A model generated the notes under the pieces. The model was given only the letters and a program-made list of their open reading frames with translations. It searched no databases and had not been told where the DNA came from. A program made the position numbers and the translations under genes. 45,739 nucleotides of DNA from an uncultured Erysipelotrichaceae bacterium. Lineage in GTDB: Bacteria; Bacillota_I; Bacilli_A; RFN20; CAG-826. The DNA lies in NCBI GenBank assembly GCA_946183085.1, contig CAMGZU010000003.1:1-45739 (forward strand). The letters are read 5' to 3'. Shown here piece after piece: positions 6,047 through 11,253 of this stretch. Numbering within the stretch: the first letter of the stretch is position 1; every line of letters begins with the position of its first letter.

Positions 6047-6916
6047 TTATCGTCCGAGGCGCTTGAGGATGTCCTCCAACCCATCCACCCATTCGATTTC
6101 GAATTGATGGGCGAAGAACGTGTCCTGCCTTTTGACGTAATGGCGAGTGTTCTTCTTAATCTCCTCTTTGCATTCCTCGAGGCTCTTTTCGCCATCGAAA
6201 TACGGGAAGAGCTCCTTGACGCCGATCGCTTGGAACGCTCGGCAGGAGCGGCCATATTTCTCGATGAGCCTCTTATCTTCTTCGACAAGGCCTTCCTCGA
6301 ACATCTTATCGACGCGTTTCTCCACTTTGGCGTAGAGCTCGTCGCGTTCAGGCTTCAAGCCGAAGAAACGAACCGGGTAAATCGGCTTGTGCTCCTGCTT
6401 GCTGAGGTACTCGGTTTTCGTGATTCCTTTGGCGCGAAAGATCTCCAAGGCACGACGAACGCGCGGCCGATTGTTCGGATGAAGTTTCTTCGCTTCTTCC
6501 GGATCCACTTTCTCGAGTTCATGGAAGAGCGCTTGATCATCGAGGGCGTCAAGATCGCTCATATCGACCTCGGGCCACTCCTCGAATTCGTAATCAAAAA
6601 GGCCAGCGCGGATATAAAGGCCCGTCCCGCCGGCAAGAATCGGCGTCTTGCCGCGCGAAAGGACTTCTTCGATGCACGTACGCAGGGCTTTTTGGTATTG
6701 ATAGACGTCATAATCCTCGGTCAGGGGGACGAAATCAAAGAGATGATGGGGAGCGCTTTCCCGCATCGCTTTGCTGGGTTTGGCGGTTGCAATGCTGAGC
6801 TCTTGGTACAGCTGAAAAGCATCGGCATTGATGACTTCTCCGCCGATTCGTTTGGCCAAAGCGATGGCAAGTTCGCTTTTGCCGCTTCCCGTTGCGCCCG
6901 CGATCACCAGAATCAT
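6047..6916 (-). CDS. miaA: tRNA (adenosine(37)-N6)-dimethylallyltransferase
   Basis: GATGSGKS, INADAFQLY, TAKP, GGTGLY, LHPNN, QAIGVKE, TRHYVKRQ. Confidence 0.97.
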   Translation of the reverse strand: MILVIAGATGSGKSELAIALAKRIGGEVINADAFQLYQELSIATAKPSKAMRESAPHHLFDFVPLTEDYDVYQYQKALRTCIEEVLSRGKTPILAGGTGLYIRAGLFDYEFEEWPEVDMSDLDALDDQALFHELEKVDPEEAKKLHPNNRPRVRRALEIFRAKGITKTEYLSKQEHKPIYPVRFFGLKPERDELYAKVEKRVDKMFEEGLVEEDKRLIEKYGRSCRAFQAIGVKELFPYFDGEKSLEECKEEIKKNTRHYVKRQDTFFAHQFEIEWVDGLEDILKRLGR

Positions 6917-8655
6917 TCCAAGGTCTCTTTCACTTCCAATAAGATGCGTTCCACGTCGTCATGGATGGCATTGTAGTTTTCGACGAGCGGATGGTGTTTC
7001 AAAGCTTCCTGCAGTTGGAGATACTCTTTTTTGGCTTTGGCATACTTCACATCATCGCCGATCGACGCGGTCATATCACGCTGGGCTGACATGATCTTCG
7101 CCCTAAGGTCAACAAGGGTTGAATCCTTTTGGATCGCCTCGTCCAAAGAGAGGAATTCGGCGATCACGTCCTCTTTCTTTAAGGCACTCGCTAAGCTTTT
7201 CGCCTTGGAGATCAGCGGATCTTCCAAAAGCTCGCCGACCAGATAATGGCAATGGTTCTCGACGATCTTTAGCTTCACGATTTCGCCTTCTAGATAAGCA
7301 GGCCCTTTGAAGTTCACAAGCTTGCTTCCTTCGGTATAGCCTGAAAGAATCGAAGGATCTTTTTTCGAGGGTCCTTCCACCAAGACGTCCACTTCTTTGC
7401 CAAGGAGTTTGGCGCTGGCGGCATTGGTGGATTCTTCGATCACCTTAAGTAGGCGGTTGAAGCGTTCGTGTTTGTCTTCATCGCTCACGTTATCGATCAT
7501 CTTCGCGGCGGGCGTGCCTTTCCTTGGCGAATAGATGAAGGTGAAGGCGGAGTCATAGCCGACCTTCTGGGCGAGGGTCAAAGTATCTTCGAATTGCTCG
7601 GCGGTCTCATTGGGGAATCCGACGATGATGTCCGTGGTGATCGCGCAGCCTGGAATCTTCGTGCGGATCTTGTCGACAAGCTCCAAATACGATTCACGGG
7701 TATAACGCCTTCCCATCAAGCGAAGGACTTCGGTGTTGCCCGACTGCACTGGCAAATGGATGCATTTCATTATGTTTGGGTAACGGGCGATGACGTCCAG
7801 CATGTCGTCCGAGAAATCCCAAGGATGGCTGGTCATGAAACGCAAACGTGGAATCCCGAGCTTCGCCACCTCTTCCAAGCAGGTCGCGAAATTGGTTCCG
7901 TCATGGAAGTCTTTGCCATAGGAATTGACGTTTTGCCCCAAGAGGGTGATTTGGGTATAGCCCGCATCCACAAGTTCTTTGCACTCTTTCAAAACATCCG
8001 CCAAAGGACGGCTTCTTTCGCGCCCTCTGGTATAAGGAACGATGCAATACGTGCAGAACTTATCGCAGCCATACATTATGTTCACGTAGGCTTTGTGTTT
8101 ATCCAAACGCTCGGAGGGGAGATTCTCGATGATGTCGCCCGCGAAAGAAAGAACGGAGACGATGTCTTTCTTCGTCGCGAGGTGTTTATCGATGAGTTCC
8201 AACACTTTGGAGAGGTTATGGGTCCCAAAGACCAAATTAAGATAGGGATAGCGGCTCGTAAGCTTCTCCGCGACACCTTCTTCCTGCATCATGCAGCCGC
8301 AGATGCCAAGGATGAAGTCTTTGTCGGCTTTGTGGTTCTTCTTGAATTTGCCGATCTCGCCATAGACTTTGTCCTCCGCATTCTCGCGGACGGCGCAGGT
8401 GTTGATGATGACGAGGTTCGCCTCTTCTTCCACATCGGTGCGGACAAAGCCAGCCATGCTCAAATAGCCCGCTAAGATCTCCTCGTCGCGGACATTGGCT
8501 TGGCATCCGAAGGTTTTGATCAGGAATTTGCGGCCTTTTGCGAATTCTCTGACGCGCGGGGAGACCACGACGTCTTCGTAGATCAGATTCGGTTTTGCAA
8601 CGCGGTCCCTCGCCTTGGAAAGGTCGGGAAGAGATTCAAATACTCGCTTCGCCAT
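6913..8655 (-). CDS. miaB: tRNA-2-methylthio-N6-dimethylallyladenosine synthase with a C-terminal RicA/YmcA-like domain
   Basis: TFGCQAN, NTCAVRE, CGC, radical-SAM GCDKFCTYC, LLGQNVNSY and a TRAM domain, then 102 extra helical aa. Start moved to ATG 8655 (SD GGAGG). Confidence 0.95.
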   Translation of the reverse strand: MAKRVFESLPDLSKARDRVAKPNLIYEDVVVSPRVREFAKGRKFLIKTFGCQANVRDEEILAGYLSMAGFVRTDVEEEANLVIINTCAVRENAEDKVYGEIGKFKKNHKADKDFILGICGCMMQEEGVAEKLTSRYPYLNLVFGTHNLSKVLELIDKHLATKKDIVSVLSFAGDIIENLPSERLDKHKAYVNIMYGCDKFCTYCIVPYTRGRERSRPLADVLKECKELVDAGYTQITLLGQNVNSYGKDFHDGTNFATCLEEVAKLGIPRLRFMTSHPWDFSDDMLDVIARYPNIMKCIHLPVQSGNTEVLRLMGRRYTRESYLELVDKIRTKIPGCAITTDIIVGFPNETAEQFEDTLTLAQKVGYDSAFTFIYSPRKGTPAAKMIDNVSDEDKHERFNRLLKVIEESTNAASAKLLGKEVDVLVEGPSKKDPSILSGYTEGSKLVNFKGPAYLEGEIVKLKIVENHCHYLVGELLEDPLISKAKSLASALKKEDVIAEFLSLDEAIQKDSTLVDLRAKIMSAQRDMTASIGDDVKYAKAKKEYLQLQEALKHHPLVENYNAIHDDVERILLEVKETLE

Positions 8656-9445
8656 AGAACTCGTTTCCTCCAATGTATTGTACGGGGCGGATGAAGTGGC
8701 ATGCGCCCGTTTCGTCGTCAAACTCCATCCAAACAAAGCAAACCACAGGTTTGGCGTCTTCGTCTAGGGAGAGTTTGTTGTCTTTGCCATAGATCATCTT
8801 CTCAATCGCGCCTTCCACATTGAAGCCAATGATCGAATCGTCGGCCCCACACATTCCGGCATCGCTTAAGAAACCAGTGCCTTTTGGGAAGATGCGCGCG
8901 TCATTGGTCTGCACGTGGGTGTGGGTGCCGATCACCGCGCTGACCTGCCCATCAAAGAAATGGCCAAAGAGCTGCTTTTCGGACGTGGACTCCGCATGAT
9001 AATCGACGATATGAATGTCCGCTTTCTCCTCGTGATCTAGGACCTCACGGAGGGCGATATAAGGCACGCGGACGTCTTCTTTCATGAATGCCGTGCCCAA
9101 GAGATTGGTGACGCGGATACTCACGCCATCGCAATCGAAGACGGCGCTTCCGACGCCCTTATCGAAGCTTAAAAGATTCAGTGGGCGGATCAAACGGTCC
9201 GCGTCCTCGATATAATCCTCGATCTGTTTCTTGGAATTCCAATGGTTGCCGAGGGTGACGCAATCGACGCCCGCGTCAATCAAATCGAGGTAATCCCGTT
9301 CCGTAATCCCTTTGCCGCGCGAGACGTTCTCGCCGTTGGCGATGATGAAATCGGCCTCGTATTTTTGGGCCAGTTTAGGCAAAAGGGAGGCAACGGCCTC
9401 AAGGCCGAGCCTCCCAACAATGTCACCGAAGAACAATATCTTCAT
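8636..9445 (-). CDS. ymdB: YmdB/TIGR00282 metallophosphoesterase (2',3'-cyclic nucleotide phosphodiesterase)
   Basis: GDIVG, NGEN, TLGNH, DYHAESTSEK, GTHTHVQT, SDAGMCG. Directly downstream of rny as in Bacillus. Confidence 0.95.
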   Translation of the reverse strand: MKILFFGDIVGRLGLEAVASLLPKLAQKYEADFIIANGENVSRGKGITERDYLDLIDAGVDCVTLGNHWNSKKQIEDYIEDADRLIRPLNLLSFDKGVGSAVFDCDGVSIRVTNLLGTAFMKEDVRVPYIALREVLDHEEKADIHIVDYHAESTSEKQLFGHFFDGQVSAVIGTHTHVQTNDARIFPKGTGFLSDAGMCGADDSIIGFNVEGAIEKMIYGKDNKLSLDEDAKPVVCFVWMEFDDETGACHFIRPVQYIGGNEFYGEASI

Positions 9446-9472
9446 GGGGATAAACCCCTTTCTAAGCCGAGG

Positions 9473-11053
9473 TTATTTTGCGGTCTCGACGGCCCGATAT
9501 TCGCGGATGATGGAGATCTTGATCTGACCAGGATAGGTCATCTCATTCTCAATCTTCTCGCGCATTTTCTGCGACATGAGAACGGCTTCTTGGTCGCTCA
9601 CCTTCTCAGGAATGACCATGACGCGGATCTCGCGGCCCGATTGCATCGCAAAGGCCTGGGAGACGCCGTCGAAGGATTTGGCGATCGACTCAAGCTGCTC
9701 GATGCGCTTGATATAGGTCTCAAGGGTTTCGCTTCTCGCACCCGGACGGGCGGCGGATAAGGTATCGCCAGCCTGGACGAGGTGGGAGATGACGAATTTG
9801 GCTTCAACGTCGCCATGGTGCGATTCGATCGCGTTGATGACGACTTCCGGCTCGCCATATTTCTTCGCAAGGCGGGCGCCGAGTTCGACGTGGCTGCCTT
9901 CTTGCTCGAAGTCGATGGCTTTACCGATGTCATGGAGGAGGCCAGCGCGTTTGGCTAAGGTCTGATCCAAGCCAAGCTCGGCGGCCATGATGCCGGATAA
10001 ATAAGCGACTTCCATCGAGTGATCGAGGACGTTCTGACCATAGGAGGTGCGGTAATGGAGGCGGCCGATATAAGTGACGAGTTCGCGGTTGATGCGCGGG
10101 AGGCCGAGCTTGAAGACGGCGTCTTCGCCATACTTCTGGCAGCTTTCTTCGACTTCCTTTTTGCACTTTTCGGCGACCTCTTCGATGCGGCCCGGCTGGA
10201 TGCGGCCATCCTTGATTAAGTATTCAAGGGTGCGGCGCGCGATCTCGCGGCGGATCGGGTCGAAGCAGGAAACGGTGATGACTTCGGGGGTGTCGTCGAC
10301 GACGAGGTCAACGCCCAAAGAGGTCTCTAAGGCGTGGATGTTGCGACCTTCGCGGCCGATGATGCGGCCTTTGAGTTCGTCCGAGGGAAGGGCGACGACC
10401 GAGACGGTGCGTTCGCTCGTGACGTCTTGCGCGTATTTGGCGCAGGCGAGAGCGAGGAGGTCGCGGGCTTTCGCTTCCGCGGTCTCTTTGGCTTCGTCTT
10501 CCGCGTTGCGGATATAGGAAGCGATCTCCATCGACATCTTGCTTTCGACGCGGGCCATGATTTCGTCATGGGCCTCTTTGGTCGACATGCCGGCAACCTT
10601 TTCAAGCTCTTTGATAATGGCGTCAATCTGCTGGTCTAAGACTTCCTGACGTTTCTGAACCTGAGCGAGGCGGGTGTTGAGGGATTCGTTCTTGGCTTCA
10701 AGAGCGTTCTCTTTCTGGATGAGGGCGGTGTCACGCTGATCGATGGCTTGCTCACGGAGAGAAAGCTTCTGCTCTTGCGCGCTTAATTCGCCTTTGCGGC
10801 TGCGGATGTCGTTCTCAGCCTGCTGACGCGCTTCGAAGGCGGCCTGCTTGGCGTCGATTTCGGCATTCTTTTGGATGCGTTCGGCCTGGATCTTGGCATC
10901 GTGGATGATTTGCTTCGCATCGCGCTGGGCGCGACCTTTCGCGTTCTTGTTGATGAGGAACGTCACCAAAACAGCCACACCGGCACCAACGACGACGCCG
11001 GCGATTGCAAGACCTACTGTAAGACCAACATCCACCAAAACTGGGATAAACAT
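9473..11053 (-). CDS. rny: Ribonuclease Y
   Basis: N-terminal TM, coiled coil, KH motif KGRIIGREGRNI, HD motif LLHDIGKA, DTLSAARPGAR. Start at ATG 11053 (SD AAGGAG). Confidence 0.98.
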   Translation of the reverse strand: MFIPVLVDVGLTVGLAIAGVVVGAGVAVLVTFLINKNAKGRAQRDAKQIIHDAKIQAERIQKNAEIDAKQAAFEARQQAENDIRSRKGELSAQEQKLSLREQAIDQRDTALIQKENALEAKNESLNTRLAQVQKRQEVLDQQIDAIIKELEKVAGMSTKEAHDEIMARVESKMSMEIASYIRNAEDEAKETAEAKARDLLALACAKYAQDVTSERTVSVVALPSDELKGRIIGREGRNIHALETSLGVDLVVDDTPEVITVSCFDPIRREIARRTLEYLIKDGRIQPGRIEEVAEKCKKEVEESCQKYGEDAVFKLGLPRINRELVTYIGRLHYRTSYGQNVLDHSMEVAYLSGIMAAELGLDQTLAKRAGLLHDIGKAIDFEQEGSHVELGARLAKKYGEPEVVINAIESHHGDVEAKFVISHLVQAGDTLSAARPGARSETLETYIKRIEQLESIAKSFDGVSQAFAMQSGREIRVMVIPEKVSDQEAVLMSQKMREKIENEMTYPGQIKISIIREYRAVETAK

Positions 11054-11205
11054 TGTTGTGCTCCTTACATTACGTAAACCAAAAAAGCACTTAGAGAAAA
11101 CCCACAGCAACCAAGGGATGATGAATCTATAAGTAACGAGGCAAGCCTCGGAACATAAGGCCCAGAAGGAATCTATGGGACTAAGTACCTGAATGGTACT
11201 CGTTT

Positions 11206-11214
11206 ATTGTAGCA
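11206..11214 (-). promoter_or_regulatory. Extended -10 promoter (TGCTACAAT) for rny
   Basis: TG-n-TACAAT just downstream of the recA terminator; implies a leader of about 145 nt. Confidence 0.6.
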
Positions 11215-11253
11215 ACAAATCCCCGCCTTTTGAAACGCGAAACGCGAGAGAAG

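What the first reader, a model, noticed from the sequence alone, without database searches (positions are those of the whole stretch)
6913..7221. MiaB fused in-frame to a RicA (YmcA/YlbF-family) domain
Seen: no stop follows the TRAM domain. The next 102 aa (DPLISKAKSLASAL...LQEALKHHPLVENY...ILLEVKETLE) follow the RicA pattern of B. subtilis YmcA (IVQQARNLAKMI...LQEELEEIPVIQEF). Known: ymcA directly follows miaB in Bacillus, and RicAFT is an Fe-S complex that modulates RNase Y, which is encoded two genes upstream. Inference: this Rosetta-stone fusion links tRNA methylthiolation to the Ric/RNase Y complex or to Fe-S handling.
Basis: partly seen in the sequence, partly recalled or inferred. Interest (0 to 1): 0.6.

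Follow-up and report, generated by a model that had tools for sequence, protein, structure and literature searches.

The report
MiaB fused to tail-less RicA
In this uncultured gut or rumen Bacilli genome the tRNA-modifying iron-sulfur enzyme MiaB and the small RNase Y helper protein RicA, normally two overlapping neighbour genes, are one conserved protein, which suggests but does not prove that the two work together.

Summary
Window 6916-8655 (minus strand) is one 580-aa ORF: a complete MiaB (residues 1-477) followed, after a 3-residue linker, by a complete RicA-type Com_YlbF domain (residues 480-579; DNA 6916-7221).

- **Not an assembly error.** The same in-frame fusion occurs in 28 of 29 sampled genomes of the genus and in 11 of 11 of its sister genus. 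Those two genera form one clade. It arose at least twice more in the family.
- **Origin.** Other genera keep the same rny-ymdB-miaB-ricA-miaA cluster, but with miaB and ricA as separate genes that overlap by a few bases. A small indel in that overlap makes the fusion.
- **Still constrained.** The tail is under purifying selection, like free RicA. It is the genome's only RicA. RicF and RicT are encoded elsewhere in the genome.
- **No cysteine.** The tail lacks the C-terminal Cys that ligates an Fe-S cluster in B. subtilis RicA. Free RicA across the whole family lacks it too, so a direct Fe-S role for this domain is not supported.
- **Open question.** A functional MiaB-Ric link is inferred only. 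One species has split the gene again, so both states are tolerated.

This scan found the same fusion earlier in at least six other genomes. I found no paper describing it.

The parts
6916..8655 (-). The whole miaB::ricA fusion gene (580 aa counted from the ATG). A TTG-initiated extension to 8736 is possible but overlaps ymdB.
   Evidence: It matches the NCBIfam MiaB equivalog TIGR01574 at 517.9 bits, cut-off 355.3.
7225..8655 (-). MiaB part (residues 1-477): the UPF0004 domain with auxiliary-cluster Cys 51, 87 and 121; the radical SAM motif C197-x3-C201-x2-C204; and the TRAM domain at 417-477.
   Evidence: Pfam. All six Cys are invariant in 33 of 33 MiaB rows of alignment A1. AF2 full-length model: pLDDT 87.8, pTM 0.82.
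7216..7224 (-). Junction (residues 478-480, L-E-D), followed by the junction proline P481. In the AF2 model the last TRAM strand ends at 476 and the first RicA helix starts at 480.
   Evidence: The junction reads GELxEDP or GELxDDP in most genomes of both genera; the junction proline is invariant and the Asp before it nearly invariant in alignment A3.
6916..7221 (-). RicA (YmcA)-type Com_YlbF domain (residues 479-580): five helices, no cysteine, ending at the family's normal C-terminus.
   Evidence: dN/dS is 0.03-0.15 in pairs where dS is not saturated.
6913..6916 (-). ATGA overlap: the fusion gene's stop (TGA, 6913-6915) overlaps the miaA start (ATG, 6914-6916).
   Evidence: Read directly from the sequence.
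6047..6916 (-). miaA (IPP transferase). It makes i6A37, the MiaB substrate.
   Evidence: Pfam IPPT, E 1.5e-75.
8636..9445 (-). ymdB (YmdB-like metallophosphoesterase).
   Evidence: Pfam YmdB, E 1e-87.
9473..11110 (-). rny (RNase Y), the first gene of the cluster. A promoter-like site lies at 11234-11206 on the minus strand.

Best explanation
This is a genuine, vertically inherited gene fusion that makes one bifunctional protein.

Shown:
- The ancestral state in this family is the cluster rny-ymdB-miaB-ricA-miaA, with the miaB stop and the ricA start overlapping by a few bases.
- A small frame-changing indel in that overlap joined the two reading frames. This happened once in the common ancestor of this genus and its sister genus.
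- It also happened independently in at least two other species.
- All MiaB catalytic cysteines are intact.
- The RicA part is full length for this family, is predicted to fold like RicA, and evolves under purifying selection at the same rate as free RicA.
- It is the only RicA-type gene in the genome. RicF and RicT are encoded elsewhere.

Inferred:
- The N-terminal part converts i6A37, made by the MiaA encoded next door, to ms2i6A37.
- The C-terminal domain pairs with RicF and then RicT, as in B. subtilis, where RicAF is needed to load RicT onto RNase Y.
- MiaB is therefore held at the Ric complex at 1:1 with RicA in this clade.

Whether that tether is adaptive or only a tolerated result of an easy mutation is open. 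I lean slightly towards tolerated.
For: - Domains and scores.
- The tail is RicA-type rather than RicF-type. The second Com_YlbF gene lies next to rsmD-coaD, as ylbF does in Bacillus (ylbF position from memory).
- Conservation: 27 of 28 relatives in the genus plus this genome, 11 of 11 in the sister genus, and one species each in two further genera.
- Tree of MiaB+Rny+YmdB+MiaA, 61 rows: the two fused genera form one clade with SH-aLRT 100, and the fewest state changes is 4.
- The fused tail aligns end to end with free RicA.
- A 1-nt deletion in the ATGAGTGA overlap explains the fusion in G124.
- dN/dS is 0.03-0.15 for the fused tail and 0.04-0.12 for free RicA in unsaturated pairs.
- Six catalytic Cys are invariant.
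- Only two Com_YlbF matches in the genome, one being RicF; RicT keeps all six Cys.
- RicT is present in 23 of 24 relatives in the genus.
- RicAF is required to load RicT onto Rny in B. subtilis (PMC10470536).
Against: - No protein-level evidence exists. The full-length product, its binding to RicF/RicT and its MiaB activity are all untested.
- The RicA C141 ligand of Fe-S cluster 2 (PMC6751060) is absent, and RicF here has one C-terminal Cys rather than two. The complex may therefore be built differently from the B. subtilis one.
- G010, nested inside the genus, has split the gene again through a 16-nt insertion carrying a stop and a new ATG. The fusion is therefore dispensable.
- Internal initiation or cleavage that releases free RicA cannot be excluded, although no conserved internal start is visible.
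Confidence: 0.8

Rival explanations
1. The fusion is adaptive because MiaB and the Ric complex really cooperate. Either MiaB is a client or partner of RicAFT (for example for supply or repair of its sacrificial auxiliary Fe-S cluster), or tRNA methylthiolation is coupled to RNase Y-dependent RNA processing. On this reading the fusion fixes an interaction that exists between the separate proteins in other Bacilli.
For: - miaB-ricA synteny is conserved across Bacilli and unexplained since 2010 (PMC2952846, PMC6751060).
- In this family the pair also sits in one cluster with rny and miaA.
- The fusion arose at least 3 times and has been kept across two genera.
- The tail is under purifying selection.
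- The linker is only about 3 residues.
Against: - Overlapping stop/start codons make fusion a one-indel event, so recurrence may reflect opportunity rather than selection.
- One fission has occurred.
- Most genera of the family, and all other Bacilli sampled, keep the genes apart.
- The tail has no Cys, so it cannot hold a cluster itself.
- No published MiaB-Ric interaction turned up in four literature searches.
Confidence: 0.3
2. The tail no longer acts as a Ric subunit. It has been co-opted as a MiaB accessory, for example as a dimerisation or tRNA-handling helical module.
For: - RicA can form homodimers (PMC6751060).
- The tail is attached almost rigidly to the TRAM domain, which is the RNA-binding domain.
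- It lacks the cluster-ligating Cys.
Against: - RicF and RicT are retained in these small genomes, and no other RicA exists to partner them.
- The tail is no more diverged than free RicA, and the Cys-bearing C-terminal extension is already missing from free RicA in the family.
Confidence: 0.1
3. The fusion is an assembly or sequencing artefact, that is, a missed base at the junction.
For: The genome is a fragmented MAG (121 contigs, 88% complete), and reads were not available.
Against: - The same in-frame junction is present in about 40 independently assembled genomes.
- Their nucleotide sequences have diverged, with dS often saturated, while the junction motif is conserved.
Confidence: 0.01

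Closest known systems
B. subtilis ymcB (miaB)-ymcA (ricA) bicistronic pair
   Same: Same two families in the same order and orientation. The pair is co-transcribed in B. subtilis and is widely conserved in Bacilli (PMC2952846, PMC6751060).
   Different: In B. subtilis these are two separate proteins. Here they form one polypeptide with a 3-residue linker, inside a compacted rny-ymdB-miaB::ricA-miaA cluster.
RicA (YmcA) of B. subtilis, PDB 2pih, 6prh, 6prk
   Same: Same Com_YlbF family: profile match of 42.5 bits over RicA residues 9-111. Same helical fold, TM 0.68-0.69. The conserved P in the HP(L/V)xxN block aligns with the P of RicA EIPVIQEF.
   Different: It has no counterpart of RicA residues about 112-143, so no C141 Fe-S ligand. 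It is not a free protein. Sequence identity is only about 16%.
MiaB, the ms2i6A37 methylthiotransferase (TIGR01574)
   Same: Full UPF0004 + radical SAM + TRAM architecture, all six cluster cysteines, and a score above the equivalog cut-off.
   Different: It carries an extra 100-aa C-terminal domain directly after the TRAM domain.

Membership tests
MiaB (TIGR01574 / UPF0004 + Radical_SAM + TRAM) | Scores above the curated equivalog cut-off | tested here: met
   517.9 bits against a cut-off of 355.3. MtaB and RimO models score below their own cut-offs.
MiaB (TIGR01574 / UPF0004 + Radical_SAM + TRAM) | Three Cys of the N-terminal auxiliary cluster, and the radical SAM CxxxCxxC motif | tested here: met
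   C51, C87, C121 and C197, C201, C204 are invariant in 33 of 33 rows.
MiaB (TIGR01574 / UPF0004 + Radical_SAM + TRAM) | Methylthiolation of i6A37 in tRNA | not testable with these tools
   Only the context fits: miaA is the next gene and overlaps by ATGA.
RicA (YmcA), Com_YlbF family PF06133 | Pfam Com_YlbF match above the gathering score | tested here: met
   34.9 bits in the full protein and 39.5 bits for the tail alone, against a cut-off of 23.9.
RicA (YmcA), Com_YlbF family PF06133 | Closer to RicA than to the paralogues RicF and YheA | tested here: met
   The profile of tails and free RicA scores 42.5 bits on RicA, 26.7 on RicF and 15.9 on YheA. The gene sits in the ymcA position after miaB, while the other Com_YlbF gene sits next to rsmD-coaD, where I recall ylbF lying in B. 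subtilis.
RicA (YmcA), Com_YlbF family PF06133 | RicA-like helical fold | tested here: met
   AF2 pLDDT 94.7. The top Foldseek hits are 2pih_A, 6prk_B and 6prh, with TM 0.61-0.69 and probability 1.00 but weak E-values of 0.006-0.012.
RicA (YmcA), Com_YlbF family PF06133 | C-terminal cysteine (C141 in B. subtilis) that ligates [4Fe-4S] cluster 2 | tested here: not met
   The tail has no Cys and ends where the helical bundle ends. Free RicA across the whole family also lacks a Cys-bearing C-terminal extension (PMC6751060).
RicA (YmcA), Com_YlbF family PF06133 | Forms RicAF and RicAFT complexes and is needed for RicT-RNase Y association | not testable with these tools
   The partner genes are present. 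RicF is 122 aa. RicT matches NF041131 at 252.5 bits and keeps the CxxxxCC...CxxxxCC cysteines. RicT is in 23 of 24 relatives in the genus.

The most novel reading that the evidence does not exclude
The fusion records a real physical partnership between MiaB and the RicAF(T) module that also exists between the separate proteins in Bacillus and Staphylococcus. If so, the RNase Y specificity complex and tRNA ms2i6A37 formation would be mechanistically coupled, for example through Ric-dependent maintenance of MiaB's sacrificial Fe-S cluster or through tRNA-modification status feeding into RNase Y targeting. That would explain the conserved miaB-ricA synteny.
Probability: 0.3. Interest if true: 0.7.

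Novelty: new variant of a known kind. Interest (0 to 1): 0.45.

Why it matters
The roles of RicA, RicF and RicT are still debated, and the conserved miaB-ricA gene pair has been called unexplained since 2010 (PMC2952846). A natural fusion that has been kept across two genera, that arose repeatedly, and that is the cell's only RicA gives a concrete hypothesis to test: MiaB and the Ric module act in physical proximity. It also shows that RicA can work with its N-terminus blocked and without the Cys ligand thought important in B. subtilis. That constrains models of the complex. The caveat is that fusions of overlapping neighbour genes arise easily and can be neutral.

Tried and rejected
- **Tail alone against PDB sequences.** No RicA hit; a profile was needed.
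- **Word-indexed homologue search on the tail.** It returned only the protein's own cluster and one fragment.
- **Exhaustive search of 50%-identity representatives.** It found mostly free RicA of about 103 aa plus a few fragments. Fused forms are probably hidden behind unfused MiaB cluster representatives, so this search cannot measure how widespread the fusion is.
- **ESM Atlas.** It listed only ordinary MiaB clusters.
- **Phylum-level survey.** It largely redrew the class-level sample and added no fusions.
- **Assembly artefact.** Rejected because of conservation across assemblies.
- **Loss of the Cys tail as a consequence of fusion.** Rejected, because free RicA in sister genera also lacks it.
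- **Relaxed selection after fusion.** Rejected.
- **Conserved internal start that would release free RicA.** None seen at the junction.
- **Domain docking of RicA on MiaB.** Could not be judged, because model coordinates and PAE are not returned.

Full report
**Observation.** On the minus strand one ORF runs from 8655 (ATG; an upstream TTG at 8736 is also open) to the stop at 6913-6915. Pfam places UPF0004 at 43-144, Radical_SAM at 191-361, TRAM at 417-477 and Com_YlbF at 482-579. The Com_YlbF match scores 34.9 bits against a gathering score of 23.9, and the tail alone scores 39.5 bits. NCBIfam calls the N-terminal part a MiaB equivalog (TIGR01574, 517.9 bits, cut-off 355.3). The neighbours are as stated: rny (9473-11110), ymdB (8636-9445), the fusion, then miaA (6047-6916). 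The miaA ATG overlaps the fusion's TGA as ATGA. A promoter-like site precedes rny.

**Is the tail RicA?** I aligned 21 fused tails with 13 free neighbours (A2) and searched PDB sequences with the profile. It matches B. subtilis RicA best (6prh_A, 42.5 bits, E 7e-10, RicA residues 9-111). RicF follows (26.7 bits), then SP1372 and YheA. The AF2 model of the tail (pLDDT 94.7, five helices) has 2pih (YmcA), 6prk_B and 6prh (RicA) as its top Foldseek hits. Their TM-scores are 0.61-0.69 and the probability is 1.00, although the E-values are weak.

The genome has only one other Com_YlbF gene. It encodes 122 aa and lies next to rsmD-coaD, where (from memory) ylbF lies in B. subtilis, so it is RicF. 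RicT is present after holB, matches NF041131 at 252.5 bits and keeps the CxxxxCC...CxxxxCC cysteines. The tail is therefore the genome's only RicA.

**Is it real?** Reads were not available, so I used independent assemblies.
- In the genus, 27 of 28 other genomes have the Com_YlbF match inside a 577-653-aa frame. For 21 of them I confirmed MiaB and RicA in one ORF inside rny-ymdB-miaB::ricA-miaA.
- I built a junction profile (A3: end of TRAM plus RicA) and ran it over 399 genomes of the class. Full-length in-frame matches occurred only in this family: this genus, a second genus (11 of 11), and one species of a third genus (G140). One species of a fourth genus (G124) had been found earlier.
- All other genera keep miaB (about 480-490 aa) and ricA (about 92-108 aa) as separate genes whose ends overlap in different frames.
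- A phylum-level draw added nothing.

**History.**
- A tree of MiaB+Rny+YmdB+MiaA (61 rows) joins the two fused genera in one clade (SH-aLRT 100). Most of their junctions read GELxEDP or GELxDDP, and the proline is invariant.
- G140 and G124 nest among unfused congeners. The fewest state changes is four.
- G124 differs from its unfused relative G048 by a 1-nt deletion inside the ATGAGTGA stop/start overlap.
- G010, nested deep in the genus, carries a 16-nt insertion that restores a TAA stop and an ATG. That is a secondary fission, not a one-base error.
- In another family (G264), miaB-TAA-ricA lie in the same frame with no spacer, one substitution away from a fusion.

**Constraint.**
- The fused tail aligns end to end with free RicA. 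Only the initiator region is replaced, by E/D-D-P.
- In pairs with unsaturated dS, dN/dS is 0.03-0.15 for fused tails, 0.04-0.12 for free RicA and 0.01-0.06 for the MiaB core. The fusion did not relax selection.
- The six MiaB cluster cysteines are invariant.
- In the full-length AF2 model (pLDDT 87.8, pTM 0.82) the last TRAM strand ends at 476 and the first RicA helix starts at 480.

**What does not fit the B. subtilis picture.** In B. subtilis, cluster 2 of RicAFT is ligated by RicT C167, RicF C134 and C146, and RicA C141 (PMC6751060). The tail here has no Cys and nothing beyond the helical bundle. The same is true of free RicA throughout the family, so this loss predates the fusion. RicF here has a single C-terminal Cys (..HPHSCGGKHA), as is common in the order.

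**Mechanism.**
- Shown: a bifunctional ORF that is conserved, under selection, and the sole RicA.
- Inferred: the MiaB part methylthiolates i6A37. The RicA part pairs with RicF and RicT and helps load RicT onto RNase Y, as in B. subtilis (PMC10470536). MiaB is thereby tethered to the Ric module.

Whether this reflects true cooperation (about 0.3) or a tolerated, easily made fusion of translationally coupled genes is open. The literature notes the synteny as unexplained (PMC2952846, PMC6751060). Four searches found no report of the fusion.

**Earlier scan notes.** Earlier notes record the same fusion in at least six other genomes, with the same conclusions. My results agree with them and were obtained independently here.

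**Organism.** Related records are titled as uncultured Erysipelotrichaceae or Bacilli MAGs, including RUG-named isolates that I take to be rumen genomes. This genome is a 1.32-Mb, 121-contig MAG.

**Verdict.** This is a real and conserved new domain architecture built from two known families. It is moderately interesting as a Rosetta-stone lead, and no function has been demonstrated.

Noticed in passing
L003:802-1947 (G000 contig C5, minus strand): RicT of this genus carries a long C-terminal low-complexity tail rich in N, Q and H, including an HHHHH run. It is 381 aa here, and the open frames are 370-460 aa across the genus. RicT in other families of the order is about 276-312 aa.
   Followed up: no
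L002:1076-1444 (G000 contig C43, minus strand): RicF ends in ..FRHPHSCGGKHA, with a single Cys flanked by His, where B. subtilis RicF has two cluster ligands (C134, C146). A single C-terminal Cys is common in the order, and some RicF have none. Fe-S cluster 2 may be ligated differently or be absent.
   Followed up: partly
L094:1630-1720 (G010, same genus): A 16-nt insertion at the junction (..GAATTGGCA TAA GAGC ATG GAT GAA AAC GAC CCT..) splits miaB and ricA again in one species nested within the fused clade.
   Followed up: yes
L087:1200-1604 (G264, another family of the class): miaB and ricA lie in the same frame, separated only by one TAA with no spacer (..QGEVI*MNAVEYK..). This arrangement is one substitution from a fusion.
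   Followed up: yes
window 8636-8736: The fusion ORF can be extended upstream to a TTG at 8736, which overlaps the 3' end of ymdB by about 100 nt. I took the ATG at 8655 as the start. It still overlaps the end of ymdB by about 20 nt, so the cluster is tightly packed and probably translationally coupled.
   Followed up: no
window 6047-11234: The cluster rny-ymdB-miaB-ricA-miaA is conserved in most sampled genera of this family (miaA follows directly in about half of them). I recall these genes as more dispersed in B. subtilis.
   Followed up: partly
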